A stretch of DNA of 62,922 nucleotides, counting the filler, from Chrysochromulina tobinii (taxonomy: Eukaryota): assembly GCA_001275005.1 (NCBI GenBank). It is 8 parts of 8 records of this genome, joined end to end, with 100 filler letters (N's around TTAATTAATTAA, not from the genome) between each part and the next. Parts side by side here need not be neighbours in the genome. Positions count along the whole stretch, not along the records: positions 26,836 to 43,149 come from JWZX01000259.1; positions 43,250 to 49,162 come from JWZX01000260.1; positions 49,263 to 54,780 come from JWZX01000261.1; positions 54,881 to 60,704 come from JWZX01000262.1; 4 more parts are not named here. One strand, written 5' to 3'. Made by a program: the position numbers and the translations under genes. Position 1 is the stretch's first letter, and every line of letters starts with the position of its first letter. This document shows positions 26,836-60,704 of the stretch, piece by piece. The notes beneath the pieces are model-generated. The model was not told the origin of the DNA, made no database searches, and saw only the letters and a list, made by a program, of their open reading frames with translations.

Positions 26836-28548
26836 GGCTGCCGCCGCCGCCGCCGCCGCTGCCGCTGCCGCCGCCTCCGCCTCCGCCGCCGCCGCCGCCG
26901 CCGCCGCCGCGCCAGCCATTGGTCGCCGCACTCTTCGCTGCGCTCGCCGCCTCCTGTGCCGAAGCTGCCGCCCTGTGCGGCAAGTCGACCGCCATACGGA
27001 GCGCCTCGACCCAGCTGGCGGCGCCGGCCGCATCGCTGTCGCGCAACTCATAGATGCGATCATAGATGCGCACGTCGCCCTTGATGCGCTCGGCGCTTTC
27101 GCGTTGCGCCACCGGGATGAAGATGGTCGCGGGCACCTCTGATGGCATGAGGCTGCGTGCCATCGTCTGCATGTCCTTGGAGTCCGTGGGCAACTCGGAC
27201 GCGCGGTATACACCGATCACGTCTTCGATCGGGATCATGCCCTTGCAACGCGACGACGCCTCGCCGCTGCGGCCCGCTGCGATGCCCTTCCGCGTCGCTC
27301 GGCAGATAGTAGAGCAGCGCGTCGGCGCGGAGGATGAACACGCGCTCTTGCATCTTCTTTCCGCCAAAGAGGGTCGACTGGGGCGAGCGCTTCAGCAGCT
27401 TGCCCTCCTTGATGGTCGCCATGGTCGCGGCACGGCCCACTGGAAGCACCCCGCAACACTCGATTGTACTCAATGCGCTCGGCCCTCGACTCGGCCCGCC
27501 ACCACCCTTGCGCGTGGGCGCCGTGTCGGGCGACCCATAGGGCTGCCGCTCCACCACCGTTGCACTCGGCCCACCGCTCCCTTTGCGTATGAGCATCATC
27601 TCGGTGAGCTCGCTCGTGATCTGTGACGAAACCAACTTGCCAAGCATGCGGAGCCAACGGGCGCGCGCCTCCCTATCCTCGGCCACGAGCTCGCACGGCG
27701 GTGAAGCCGGACCGAAGCGCACGTGGAAGGCCACGTCGGACGCTGCCACGCTCGAAGAAAACCGTCCAAAGTCAGTGGCAATCCGTGGCCATCCGTGACA
27801 ATCAGCGGCAATCAGCGGCAATCAGCGGCAATCAGCGGCAACCACCTGCGACGCTCGAAGGCGCCGCCTCCATCGAAGTCAGGTTCGTCAGCCCGACGCA
27901 CTCGATCGCCTCCGAAGGTGCGGCGTAGTAGAGGAGACGCTCACCCGCTGCATCTAGCTGGCACCAGCGCCGCTTGAACGACGTGTTCAAAGCGCCGCGC
28001 TTCTCGAGCCACCCCAGTTTGAGCCCCTCGCGACGGCGCAGCGCGCGCAGCCAGCGCGCCTGCTCGTCCGCGTCGGGCGCGCGCAGCGTGTAGCAGCGTG
28101 ATGCCAGGGGCGTGGCCACCACGAGCAGGAGCGTCCGCTCATCCTCGACACCCACCGTTGTGCCCGAGAGCGAGATCACGCCGCGCGGCTGTGTCGTGCT
28201 TGGCGCGAAGCTGAGCAGCCGCGTGCCCTCGAGCACGTGCCATCGCAAGACGCGCTCGTCGGCCCGCGCGAGCATGCCCGCCATGTCACTTCGGCGCAAC
28301 CGCAACGCGCCGCACTCGACGCACGACGACTTGCTCAGCAGCATCTCCGCCTCGGGCTGCGCTGTGGTGAAGATGGTCTCGTCCTCGTCGGAGCTGTCCT
28401 CGTCGAGATTGCCGCCAGCGCGCGGCCGGTTGACAACGTTCAAGTCGGATTCCGAGGCTCTCGCAGATGCCCAGCCGCTCTCGCCGAACGAGTCACCGGA
28501 CGCCGACGAAGAGGCCATGTGGCCAATGCCAAAAATGGATTGCAGCAC
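26836..28548 (-). CDS. Protein with three PH domains; intron 27743-27845; apparent 1-nt frameshift near 27290; 3'-partial
   Basis: PH motifs RWHVLEGTRLLSF..PRGVISL..EQARWLRAL; KLGWLEKRG..FKRRWCQL..LLYY..ARWLRML; KEGKLLKRS..ERVFILRADALLYY..KGMIPI..ASWVEALR. A phase-1 GT-AG intron restores the frame. Start codon uncertain. Confidence 0.8.
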
Positions 28549-28868
28549 TTCGTCGTCGATAAGTTCACGTCCTCCACACCGCTATAAACTATAAAATCTT
28601 TGGTAGTACCGCCCGCCCGGGGGACGGTCTCATCGACAAGACAAAATATCTGAAGGTAAGCGGAGTAAACTGTACAGCCAGCACAGGAGCGGGAATAACA
28701 ACAGACTGACAATTGCAGACTGAGAGACGTCGGCGGCACCACTCACAAACAGACACAGAGTCGGGGCACGGTAAACCATGCACTACACAGTCCCATGTCC
28801 ACACTTTCTTGTTCACCTGTACACACGATGGTTGCAGCCTACAGAGCATGCATCGTCGTCCACGGCGG

Positions 28869-29683
28869 TTACAGCATGCCATCGTCGTCTGCGTCCGTGT
28901 GTCGACGCGAGAAGTCATTGGCACGGAGTGGCTGGGCTTGCCGCCGGTCCTGCGCAGGGGATGGGCGAGTGGGTAGTGGCACGGGAGTGGGAAGCGGGCG
29001 GGGTGGCAGGCGAGGAGTCGGGCGTGCGGGCGAGTGTGACGGCGTCCTGACGCGACGAGCGAGTACAACGCGCGGGTGTAGGCATGGGCACTCACCCGTC
29101 CTCCTGCCGAGGCGACTGCTGAGGAAACCCTGCTCATCAAATTGATCCCATCTGAGTCGGGCTGCGCACGCATCCCGCGTGTCGTGCCGCCGCGGCCTTG
29201 CGCGCGGTACGAGCGATACACGAAGAAGCCCAAGACGCCGAGCAGCATGAGCGGCACGAGCGCACCCAAACCGTCGTTGTTGCTTTTTGGGATTGGCTCC
29301 TCCTCGGTGACCGGCATGCACCACGGAGAGTTAGCGTCGAATTCCCCGTTGCTGGGGCATGGTGCCCCGGGGGGCCCAACAGACCCCGGCGGCGGTGGCG
29401 ACGGGCTCGGCGGCGGCGGCGGGTATGGGATTCGTCGTGGCGGTGGTGGCGGCGGGAACGGTAAAGATGGTGGCGGCGGTGGCGGCGAGGGCGATGAAGA
29501 TGGCGGCGGCGGCGGTGGTGGGAACGGTGCAGGTGGCGGACTGAGAGGCGGATAGCAATCAGGAGGTGAGGCCGCTAGAAGGGTTGACGGCGGCGGAGGA
29601 CTGGGGTCCGGTGGGGCAGGTGGGTAATACGCGGCATGCACCGTGTGCACTGCAAGGCACAATACGACCACGGCGTGCCGCAT
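28869..29683 (-). CDS. Small single-pass membrane protein with Pro-rich ectodomain; intron 28950-29095
   Basis: Signal MRHAVVVLCLAVHTVHA, polyproline, TM LGALVPLMLLGVLGFFVY, GTGAGT donor, phase-0 last exon DRRQ...DDDGML*. Confidence 0.7.
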
Positions 29684-58137: not shown

Positions 58138-58347
58138 GCCATCGGTGCAATCAGAGGCCATCATCAGAGGCAATCTGTTGAGGCAATCAGTGGAGGCCAT
58201 CATCAGAGGCAATCAAGTGGAGGCAATCAGTGGAGGCCATCATCAGAGGCAATCAGAGGCCACAACAGCGAGATCGCACCTGCTCTCGATGAGGGAGGCA
58301 ATCAGTGGCAATCAGAGGCCATCAGCGAGATATCAGCGAGATCGCAC

Positions 58348-60704
58348 CTGCTCTCGCAGCCGGCACCCCTCCGGCGCCGCCGCATCCCGACGAGATTGCT
58401 CGAGCTGCGCCTCCGCCTTCGTGCGCGCCGCCTCCGCCTCGCTCAGCTGTGACTGTGAATGTGAACGAGATCCGATCAGGGGCGCCGCGGTGAGCACGTC
58501 GTATTGAGCTCCATCAGTGGCTATCAGCGGAGGCCATCATCAGAGGCAATCAGTGGCACTCAATGACCCTGAGCCGCAGTGCTCATCAGAGCTCCTTCAT
58601 CTCAGATCAGACGCAATCAGACGCAATCAGTCACCTGCGCCGTCGCGAGCGCCGACGCGACCGCCCCCTCGGAGCTCAGCAGAGATTGCATCTCCGAGAG
58701 CTCGGCCAGTGAGCCCTGATGAGCTGCAATCTTGGCCCGGAGATGCTGCTCCTCCGTGGCCGTGTGCGCGAGCAGCCCCGATTTCTCCTGCGCGAGATTG
58801 TGGTTTGTCACCTCGAGCTCCGCCCCGCAAGATCGGAGCGAGAGCTCAGCTGCCGCGTGCTCCTGCGAGCTCATCGTCGAGCGCTCCTGCCACCGAGAGG
58901 GGCGCAAGAGGGAGGGCGCACTCAGATCGCAATCAGATCGCAATCAGGGCGCAATTAGTGCGCAATCAGGGCGCAATCAGTTATCATCAATGGTCATCAG
59001 TGGTCATCAGCGGTCGTCATCAAATGCCATCAGGAGTCATTAGGGGCCATCAGTCACACCTGCTCGTCCTTCATCGGCTTGAGGCGAGCTTCGTCAGCAC
59101 GGAACGCCATCTCCTGCATCTTCTGACTCTCCTGCCAAATTAGGGAGGTCCTCATCATGCAATCAGAGATGCACTCAGAGACGGGCTCGATCGCGACCGC
59201 GTGCTCGCCTGCTGTGCGGGCAATCAAGGACAATGAAAGGCAATCAAAAGGGATATCGAGGGTATATCGAGGGAGATCGAGGGAGATCGCACCTGCTGTG
59301 CGGCGGAGAGGGCCGATCGCAGCACCGCGGCGGTTTCGTCAGATTCTGCCTCGTGTTGCCTTATCTGCACCTCGACCTGCCAAGTTGAGGAGGCATCAGA
59401 CGCTCTGGAGAGGCTCCATCTAGGCTCCATCAGTGGTCATCGGTGTCATCAGTGGTCATCATGCGCCATCTGTGGTCATCAGGCGCCATCTGTGGTCATC
59501 AGGCGCCATCTGTGGTCATCAGGCGCCATCTGTGGTCATCAGGCGCCATCTGTGGTCATCAGGCGCCATCTGTGGTCACCAGGCGCCATCAGTGGTCATC
59601 AGGCGCCCGCATCTGTGGTCATCACAGGCGTCATCTGTGGTCATCAGACGCCATCAGTGGTCATCGAGGCGCCGGTGACTTGATGACATCGGATTGCCTC
59701 GGATGACCCCTGATGACCACTGACTTGACCACAATCAGTGGCTATCGGAGGCCATCGGCGAGATAGCACCTGCTCTCGATGAGGGAGGCAATCAGTGGCA
59801 ATCAGAGGCCATCCGCGAGATCGCACCTGTGAATGTGAACGAGATCCGATCACGCTCACACTCAGGGGGGTCATCAGAGGCGCACCACTCAGAGGCCATC
59901 AAGAGGCCATCAAGAGGCCATTCACGTGCCTCGCCTGCACGGTGTGACGATCGAGTTCAATCAAGAGGCAATCAATGACCCTGAGCGACACAGTGGTCAC
60001 CAGAGCTCCTCCATCTTAGAACAGACGCAATCAGACGCAATCAGTCACCTGGAGCGCTGTCCCGAGCGTGACGAGCTGCCCGAGGGGGAGGGCGGCCTTG
60101 GCTTCGTTCCCGACGCTCTCGGCCGGCATGGCAGCGGGGAGAGTCCCGATGGGGAGCTGCGCTGAGACGAACGGCGAGCCAACGCAGTGCGCGCGGTGCT
60201 TGCCCATCTGCGCCTCCGTCCGCGCTACCCTCTCGGGCGCTTCTTCGTTCTCGAGCACCACCGAGCCCGCGCCCGCCTCGTCGGGTGGCAGGGGGAGGCA
60301 CGCATAGACGAGCGTGGCTGAGCCGAGCGATGATGGCAAGGTCTTGAGGGAGTCGCCCAGGGAGCGCACGAGCCCGTGCGCGAGGGCGGGCGAGCTCATG
60401 AGCATGGAGGGCGTCGCGTCCAAGTCGGGCGAGCCCGCGTTCGAGCCACCGTCGGGGCGGCCCGTGGCCAGGTCCCTGCTCGTCAGCGCGACGAGCTCCA
60501 CGGGCGAGAGTGGCGGCGCGGGCGCGGGCGAGGGCATCTCGAGCAGCTCGAGAGCATCCAGCTGTCCGCCCATCTCGGGCAGCTCCTCCGTGTGCTCGAG
60601 CATGGGCTCGTCCTCGCGCACGCACCGCCACATGTCGAGCACCTCCTCCACGTCGTAGGGCTCGGGCTCGGCTTGGGGACGCGGGAGCGCGTCGAGGAAG
60701 CGCT
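58348..60704 (-). CDS. Multi-exon coiled-coil gene (5'-partial); exons 60704-60049, 59376-59293, 59131-59060, 58886-58635, 58452-58348; may splice in frame into the ubiquitin-AP2 ORF at 58131
   Basis: All junctions are CAG|GT...CAG phase 0; internal exon lengths 84, 72, 252 and 105 nt are multiples of three and stop-free; introns are filled with TGATTGC/TGATGAC microrepeats. Confidence 0.65.
59445..59670. repeat. Intronic 20-nt tandem array catctgtggtcatcaggcgc
   Basis: Several perfect and degenerate consecutive copies. Confidence 0.9.

What the first reader, a model, noticed from the sequence alone, without database searches (positions are those of the whole stretch)
27743..60048. Family of TGATTGC-microrepeat introns bounded by exon duplications that supply a splice site (introner-like intron factory)
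Seen: introns in four unrelated genes on three contigs are built from ~10-nt (c/g)tgattgc-type repeats, and several are flanked by direct duplications of host sequence. These are PH gene 27743-27845 (15 nt), EF-hand gene 38598-38675 (10 nt, decayed), GT15 gene 52941-53081 (26 nt) and coiled-coil gene 59209-59303 (11 nt) and 58266-58356 (23 nt). Three share an acceptor-proximal module gattgcc(t/c)ccct(c/g)at. Other introns here (3715-3852, 23520-23633, 28950-29095, 39171-39283) lack all of this. Established: introner elements in Micromonas and Aureococcus are DNA transposons with inverted termini whose short fixed-length target-site duplication can donate a splice site. Inference: variable duplication length, no visible terminal inverted repeat and a slippage-like repeat body point to a different mechanism, e.g. 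templated repeat addition at staggered breaks or target-primed insertion. I cannot tell whether this has been described for this lineage.
Basis: partly seen in the sequence, partly recalled or inferred. Interest (0 to 1): 0.85.

Follow-up and report, generated by a model that had tools for sequence, protein, structure and literature searches.

The report
Introns made by copying acceptor ends
In the freshwater alga Chrysochromulina tobinii, many short introns consist of a 9-55-base duplicate of the gene's own sequence, which gives the start signal, plus a shared intron end that was likely copied from another intron, a route to new introns with no transposase seen that published introner surveys did not report for this genome.

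Summary
Real, and larger than reported. The genes match Chrysochromulina tobinii. The GT15 intron (52941-53081) is cut out exactly in a poly(A) RNA contig. It is absent from 14 of 14 spanning sister-lineage proteins and varies in unit number among alleles. In metagenomes, 60 of 123 introns ending CTGATTGCCYCCCYCATCAG begin with a 9-55-nt copy of the next exon's start (null 0.7%); 55 of 60 copies start GT/GC. A second, repeat-free acceptor module is built the same way (23 of 36), so the microrepeat is not essential. No terminal inverted repeats, poly(A) tail or linked RT/transposase were found. Junction microhomology, local donor-recipient pairs and sense orientation suggest templated copying of an existing intron's 3' end into a staggered break; DNA or RNA template is unresolved. 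Corrections: the two coiled-coil cases are duplications inside longer introns, and the EF-gene repeat is not significant alone. A 2025 survey lists 0 introner families for this genome. The scan noted this family before on another piece of this genome (e1-2577349).

The parts
52941..53081 (+). GT15/TPR gene intron, GT..AG, 141 nt = two tandem units (52941-53010, 53011-53081), each a 26-nt exon-start copy plus two acceptor modules
   Evidence: RNA joint 52939>53081 skips 141, GT..AG; removal gives a 908-aa protein 99.6-99.7% identical to uninterrupted 909-aa proteins
52941..52966 (+). intronic copy of the next exon's first 26 nt; supplies the GT donor (second copy at 53011-53036)
   Evidence: 25/26 identical to 53082-53107
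53082..53107 (+). exonic original of the duplication (codes W-G-A-D-P-I-L-F)
   Evidence: conserved in homologs
53040..53081 (+). acceptor module 1 pair, CTGATTGCCCCCCTCATCAG type (branch-point-like CTGAT, pyrimidines, AG)
   Evidence: branch point role inferred
27743..27845 (-). PH-domain gene intron, 103 nt, CTGATTGCCG repeats; its last 15 nt copy the upstream exon end (27846-27860) and supply the AG
   Evidence: 14/15 match; frame switch against uninterrupted homolog P0053 fits; all 13 cluster members fetched read into the intron; splicing not seen in RNA (not tested)
38598..38675 (-). intron in the F420-oxidoreductase half of the EF-hand gene; degenerate module 1 at the acceptor; possible decayed 10-nt donor-side duplication
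   Evidence: removal restores the frame; module match; duplication 8/10, not significant alone
59132..59292 (-). coiled-coil gene intron (predicted); contains an internal 11-nt copy (59209-59219) of the upstream exon end (59293-59303) followed by a GC donor-like site
   Evidence: open phase-0 gene model; DNA confirmed by X1
58132..58347 (-). predicted repeat intron with a 23-nt duplication across the donor (58334-58356 copied at 58266-58288) and module 1; would join the coiled-coil exons in frame to a ubiquitin-domain ORF
   Evidence: sequence; 1433-aa open model; splicing not shown
58453..58634 (-). predicted repeat intron with a decayed module 2 (GTGCTCACCGCGGCGCC)
   Evidence: covered unspliced by RNA-library contig X12
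58887..59059 (-). predicted repeat intron
   Evidence: GT..AG, phase 0
59377..60048 (-). predicted 672-nt repeat intron; 60048-59770 resembles introns 58634-58453 and 58347-58280 joined AG|GT without the 105-nt exon between them; includes an inverted repeat piece near 59681-59732
   Evidence: alignment

Best explanation
These are young spliceosomal introns made of a 9-55-nt duplicate of host sequence plus a shared intron 3' end, and that end is likely copied from an existing family intron by microhomology-guided template switching at a staggered break or stalled fork. Shown: the anatomy (duplication, variable-length body, fixed AG end), precise removal at GT15, and absence at orthologous positions. 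Inferred steps: (1) synthesis leaves the host n bases downstream of a cryptic G|GYRCG site and anneals by 2-6 nt to another intron's 3' part. (2) It copies through branch point and AG. (3) It rejoins the host at the cryptic site, helped by the donor-like bases that follow the template's AG, so the n bases are duplicated. (4) The upstream duplicate then begins with GT/GC and serves as donor, and the mRNA is unchanged. Each new copy is again followed by a donor-like exon start, so the process would steer itself to usable sites with no transposase. Selection likely removes products that are antisense, unspliced or shorter than about 60 nt. Slippage and unequal exchange later expand repeats and whole units. 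The template (nearby DNA or unspliced pre-mRNA) is not resolved.
For: 60 of 123 module-1 sites carry the duplication against 0.7% in the null; lengths are continuous from 9 to 55 nt. Module 2, not selected for, gives 23 of 36 against 1.9%. Junction microhomology exceeds the null: 5' 2.4 vs 1.55 nt (n=29 of 37, p=0.002); module-less inserts 5' 3.2 vs 1.6 (n=11) and 3' 2.9 vs 1.1 (n=10). Same-contig acceptors share >=30 nt of 3' end in 10 of 205 pairs against 176 of 19593 between contigs. L136 holds two introns 202 nt apart with one unique 39-nt end, different duplications (13 and 43 nt) and 6 shared bases after the AG; L037 shares 7. Duplication and insert lengths anticorrelate (rho -0.56, n=37; -0.77, n=17). 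No inverted termini or poly(A) tail. No RT or transposase nearby.
Against: The near-absence of antisense or intergenic copies (245 vs 9 arrays; 20 of 21 Pfam-anchored loci sense, the exception a chance match) is stronger than an untargeted DNA process would give unless selection is efficient; it fits transcript coupling better. Whole-array similarity within loci is only marginal (0.063 vs 0.050, p about 0.05). Pairs are not independent (four top pairs come from one contig, one is a tandem derivative). Microhomology nulls are approximate, and later slippage can mimic microhomology. Donor-like target bases are also expected from selection alone. Only 2-3 donor-recipient pairs support a junction-spanning template. 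About half of module-1 sites (63 of 123) show no donor-side duplication.
Confidence: 0.5

Rival explanations
1. Target-primed reverse transcription: a non-LTR RT acting in trans copies the 3' end of family intron RNAs (excised introns, lariat intermediates or pre-mRNA) at staggered nicks, giving a fixed 3' end, 5' truncation and variable target-site duplications.
For: Fixed AG end in 37 of 37 single-unit inserts with insert lengths of 28-113 nt. Variable duplication is the known non-LTR signature (own knowledge). Sense bias and clustering in genes. Exon-less AG|GT joint of two neighbouring introns at 59827/59826. Lariat-tail chemistry joining AG to a 5' splice site exists in yeast and human (PMC10996645, passages).
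Against: No RT in 48 of 66 long window ORFs or 100 of 145 locus ORFs (weak, since it would act in trans). No poly(A) tail. Module-less inserts are variable at both ends with microhomology. Shared bases after the AG (L136, L037) cannot come from a free excised intron. The exon ends before the two paralogous introns are also alike, which suggests a DNA duplication followed by exon loss.
Confidence: 0.33
2. A conventional non-autonomous transposon (introner/MITE or SINE) with one master sequence, now decayed, whose target-site duplication gives the donor.
For: Introners that carry the acceptor and recruit the donor from the TSD are described in Symbiodinium and Polarella. Introners exist in marine Chrysochromulina MAGs. 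Constant cores of about 20-24 nt.
Against: Duplications of 9-55 nt against fixed 3-9 nt in described families. 0-6 of 10 terminal complementarity. Bodies and pyrimidine tracts differ between copies while duplications are still 89-100% identical. No common 5' end.
Confidence: 0.1
3. No copying between loci: old introns converged on repeated branch-point motifs, and local tandem duplications arose afterwards at their borders.
For: Secondary duplications at existing borders do occur (59209-59303, 58266-58356; 8 of 42). E. huxleyi introns are said to be rich in 10-11-bp repeats (Read et al. 2013, recalled; paper not held).
Against: The GT15 position is uninterrupted in 14 of 14 spanning sister proteins and in distant homologs. 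Inserts sit in conserved stretches of ProRS and complex I 75-kDa subunit. Exact 19-24-nt cores recur in unrelated genes.
Confidence: 0.07

Closest known systems
Introners carrying the 3' splice site and recruiting the 5' site from the TSD (Symbiodinium; Polarella classes 4/5, 6/8/10; bioRxiv 10.1101/2020.10.14.339549, PMC9860276)
   Same: Acceptor brought in, donor from the 5' end of the duplication, mRNA unchanged, repeated across unrelated genes.
   Different: Those have fixed 3-8-nt TSDs and, in Symbiodinium, inverted termini; here 9-55 nt, no inverted termini, no common 5' end, two unrelated modules.
Chrysochromulina sp. introner of Tara MAG (PMC9860276 Fig. 2C)
   Same: Same genus, no TIRs, one splice site from the TSD.
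   Different: 4-bp TSD, carries the donor and co-opts the acceptor. C. tobinii GCA_001275005.1 is scored 0 families in PMC12130899.
Intron gain at staggered double-strand breaks in Daphnia pulex (PMC4202315)
   Same: Variable direct repeats of exon ends, internal repeats, repeated secondary events, population polymorphism.
   Different: Repeats of 4-12 bp and filler of mostly unknown origin; here longer repeats and a filler that is a recurrent acceptor module.
Intron gain by tandem genomic duplication of AGGT-containing exon sequence, and intron transposition / RT template switching (review PMC3443670)
   Same: Duplicated exon sequence supplies a splice site; intron sequence reappears at new positions.
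   Different: Pure duplication needs both sites in the duplicate and no foreign insert; transposition moves a whole intron with its donor. Here only the 3' end moves and the donor is local.
Non-LTR retrotransposon introners (about 5% of classified families in PMC12130899)
   Same: 3'-anchored, 5'-variable inserts with variable duplications (TPRT signature from own knowledge).
   Different: No RT, tail or master element found; inserts are only about 30-110 nt.

Membership tests
Introner (broad sense) | Similar introns at many unrelated loci | tested here: met
   143 distinct module-1 sites from 146 loci, about 3000 stretches estimated; similarity limited to the 3' 20-50 nt
Introner (broad sense) | Recent gain: absent at orthologous positions | tested here: met
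   GT15: 14 of 14 spanning sister proteins uninterrupted, contigs up to 17,931 nt; PH intron present in all 13 alleles fetched
Introner (broad sense) | Precise splicing, mRNA unchanged | tested here: met
   RNA joint at GT15 (could also be an intron-free allele); uninterrupted proteins span 3 of 5 further predicted junctions without a gap
Introner (broad sense) | Full-length sequence similarity between copies | tested here: not met
   5' parts are locus-specific host duplicates
TIR DNA-transposon introner / MITE | Terminal inverted repeats | tested here: not met
   0-6 of 10 complementary bases in 37 inserts
TIR DNA-transposon introner / MITE | Fixed short TSD (3-9 nt) | tested here: not met
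   9-55 nt, continuous; duplications under 9 nt were below my threshold
Non-LTR retroposon (SINE/LINE tail) | Variable TSD, fixed 3' end, variable 5' end | tested here: met
Non-LTR retroposon (SINE/LINE tail) | Poly(A) or simple-repeat 3' tail | tested here: not met
   37 of 37 end in CATCAG (selected by the pattern); repeats lie 5' of the module
Non-LTR retroposon (SINE/LINE tail) | Autonomous RT partner or master copy sharing the 3' end | tested here: inconclusive
   none in 53 window and 100 locus ORFs; no whole genome available
Staggered-break / templated-insertion intron gain | Direct repeat of flanking host DNA and junction microhomology | tested here: met
Staggered-break / templated-insertion intron gain | Dependence on an end-joining polymerase; DNA template | not testable with these tools
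   needs genetics or genome-wide donor-recipient mapping

The most novel reading that the evidence does not exclude
A transposase-free, self-steering intron factory: any family intron's acceptor end can be captured at a cryptic donor by microhomology with the bases behind its own AG, so each product is spliced at birth and is a new template. It is active now, with alleles segregating in lake populations of a culturable alga, and it is invisible to introner searches that need full-length similarity.
Probability: 0.4. Interest if true: 0.9.

Novelty: new variant of a known kind. Interest (0 to 1): 0.75.

Why it matters
Where new spliceosomal introns come from is a long-standing question, and mass gains are currently credited to transposons (PMC12130899). 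Here a culturable alga with a sequenced genome, scored as introner-free, carries a large young family whose footprint fits neither TIR elements nor plain duplication. If acceptor capture is right, intron gain can spread without any element-encoded enzyme, proto-splice-site and phase biases follow from the mechanism, and current surveys undercount such gains. Polymorphic sites and local donor-recipient pairs make the mechanism directly testable. The inserts also mislead annotation: the NCBI model KOO53373.1 reads into the GT15 insert.

Tried and rejected
No whole genome was held, so genome-wide counts come from a partial metagenome scan (3 of 64 parts). RNA runs X12 and X13 showed no spliced joint for the coiled-coil gene among the 15 joints listed (85 more not shown); X12 covers 58453-58634 unspliced and may contain DNA. 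DNA runs X1 and X6 showed no intron-free joint at GT15; contigs drop rare variants. The viral collection gave 0 hits for module 1 and 1 for module 2, probably a chimeric contig end. Rfam on 8 loci gave 4 weak C/D-box hits far below gathering scores; rejected as motif chance. Pfam on 74 flank pieces gave no clean same-domain continuity test. A small codon model was weak (42 of 58 joined flanks sense; 7 of 7 confident cases in frame; 38 of 48 with an open joined frame). A first crude microhomology test was not significant (6 of 37 vs null mean 3.2, max 8). All-against-all BLAST found no presence/absence pair among loci. No spanning uninterrupted protein was found for L012 or L017, and 4 of 10 look-ups were not in the collection. 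Telomerase addition was set aside because the units are heterogeneous and module 2 lacks them (inference). Ten literature searches found no description of this family; subscription papers, Read et al. 2013, the SI PDF of PMC9860276 and 2 of 14 supplements of PMC12130899 were not seen.
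Full report
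Source. The window is eight contigs joined by N spacers; no whole genome is held. The GT15 region is 100% identical to a protein named Chrysochromulina tobinii, a PH-gene cluster member is labelled C. parva, and the DNA occurs in lake and culture runs. GC donors are common in the related E. huxleyi (PMC4028052, passages).

Observation. The motif and module are far above chance. The four control introns share at most 2 nt across their borders; GT15 shares 25/26, PH 14/15, EF 8/10. The two coiled-coil cases are duplications at existing exon-intron borders inside longer predicted introns. An independent DNA contig spans the first.

GT15 is the best-tested case. Removing 52941-53081 gives a 908-aa protein. 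Of the 15 members listed from its cluster (40 of 67 read), 4 span the site uninterrupted at 99.2-100% identity and 5 read into the insert, with translations that fit one, two or more units. The uninterrupted ones may be transcripts or intron-free alleles. In a sister cluster (87-94% identity) 14 of 14 spanning members are uninterrupted, one on a 17,931-nt contig, which points to genomic absence. A poly(A) RNA contig joins 52939 to 53081, skipping 141 nt GT..AG; DNA runs X1 and X6 show no such joint. That RNA contig differs at 8 of 789 bases, so an intron-free allele is not excluded. The PH intron matches a frame switch against an uninterrupted homolog that has a 24-residue loop there and is present in all 13 alleles fetched.

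The family. A metagenome scan for TGATTGCCYCCCYCATCAG gave 147 stretches from 3 of 64 parts, 146 held. Taking the last match of each cluster with enough flank gave 165 sites, 143 after removing duplicates, and 123 after dropping 20 followed by more repeats. 107 of 123 are followed by GT or GC. 60 of 123 have a copy of the downstream sequence upstream (null 0.7%), 9-55 nt long, starting GT 45, GC 10, GA 3, other 2. In 37 single-unit cases the copies are 89-100% identical, introns are 50-139 nt, 31 are preceded by G and 18 by AG. A hand count of about 70 loci from ten similarly named assemblies suggests roughly 150 exact-pattern loci per assembly (rough). Unselected repeat arrays have flanking duplications in 42 of 116 cases against 3.8%. 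Of these 42, 10 are module-plus-donor, 7 end in AG like the PH intron, 8 have a splice-like site inside, and 17 are other.

They are introns in coding sequence. Open frames on both sides are in phase after removal in 9 of 11 clear cases out of 48 (p=0.0014). Uninterrupted proteins span the predicted junction without a gap at L007 (ProRS, 96/100), L019 (93/93) and L079 (100/100), but none was found for L012 or L017. At L017 the flanks map to residues 280 and 281 of the complex I 75-kDa subunit, and the duplicated codons map twice. Where a Pfam-hit ORF lies on or within about 150 nt of the module, 20 of 21 are sense (hand count); the exception, L016, is a chance match among bacterial-type genes. 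Arrays are co-oriented with the index module 245 to 9.

A second module. The flanks contain another acceptor end, GCATGCAAGTGCTCACCACGGCGC plus a variable pyrimidine tract and CAG (59 same-strand, 8 opposite). 23 of 36 such sites have the same donor-side duplication (null 1.9%), mostly without microrepeats. This set was not selected by the scan and replicates the anatomy. For both modules, long duplications go with short inserts, as expected if intron length is constrained.

Mechanism. Inserts lack inverted termini and a poly(A) tail, and no RT or transposase was found in 48 of 66 long window ORFs plus 5 exon pieces, or in 100 of 145 locus ORFs. Junctions show 2-3 nt of microhomology above null, though a cruder test did not. 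Acceptor ends on the same contig are more often alike (10 of 205 vs 176 of 19593; pairs not independent), while whole arrays are only marginally so. L136 is a likely donor-recipient pair: the same unique 39-nt end, different duplications, and six shared bases after the AG. This favours a template that includes the exon start. I therefore prefer microhomology-guided copying of an existing acceptor end (0.5) over RT-primed copying of intron RNA (0.33), a conventional element (0.1) or in-place convergence (0.07). The strict sense bias is the main result against the preferred reading.

Comparison. Described introners that recruit the donor from the TSD have fixed 3-9-nt TSDs (PMC9860276, passages; bioRxiv 10.1101/2020.10.14.339549, parts 1-2 of 4). 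Marine Chrysochromulina MAGs have introners, the illustrated one with a 4-bp TSD. C. tobinii appears once in the 2022 spreadsheet, in the genome list (file cut when stored), and with 0 families in the 2025 survey (PMC12130899, section 6 and 12 of 14 supplements). Daphnia neointrons have 4-12-bp repeats from staggered breaks and fillers of mostly unknown origin (PMC4202315, passages). Tandem duplication and intron transposition are reviewed in PMC3443670 (passages). PMC4580454, PMC2784329, PMC10290126, PMC8379373 and PMC11282704 (passages only) did not describe the family. That E. huxleyi introns hold 10-11-bp repeats is recalled from Read et al. 2013, which I could not read.

Verdict. A real, young, genome-wide intron family with an unusual footprint: introner-like in effect, not a TIR introner, mechanism inferred. 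New variant of a known kind; interest 0.75.

Noticed in passing
window 58131-54964 (-): A 1083-codon ORF starting with a ubiquitin domain follows the last repeat intron; an AG just before IFVK would splice the coiled-coil exons to it in frame (1433 aa). Its 3' half has multi-copy repeats (high depth in X4).
   Followed up: partly
window 60048-59770 vs 58634-58280 (-): Two neighbouring introns appear copied 1.4 kb upstream and joined AG|GT, with the 105-nt exon between them missing.
   Followed up: partly
window 59681-59732: An inverted piece of the repeat array inside a repeat intron; the module's own end (CCCTCATCAG) is the reverse complement of a repeat unit.
   Followed up: no
window about 27290-27240 (-): The second PH domain changes frame between ...GVVALQ and GMIPIEDV..., next to an 8-nt direct repeat; a small intron, an indel or an error.
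   Followed up: no
L147:870-1060: A phage-like IMG/VR contig ends in a module-2 intron with repeats and a flanking duplication, antisense to its long ORF; probably a chimeric assembly.
   Followed up: partly
window 53083-53186: Contigs in X1, X6 and X15 carry a diverged copy of this exon piece in another context.
   Followed up: no
L006, L018, L065: Family inserts that keep the reading frame open, so Pfam-hit ORFs read straight through them; retention would add residues.
   Followed up: no
window 13976-14130, 12670-12844, 3991-4203: Other tandem arrays (14-, 43/81- and 105-nt units) unrelated to the modules.
   Followed up: no
window 38311-39530 (-): An EF-hand pair fused to an F420-dependent NADP oxidoreductase domain.
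   Followed up: no
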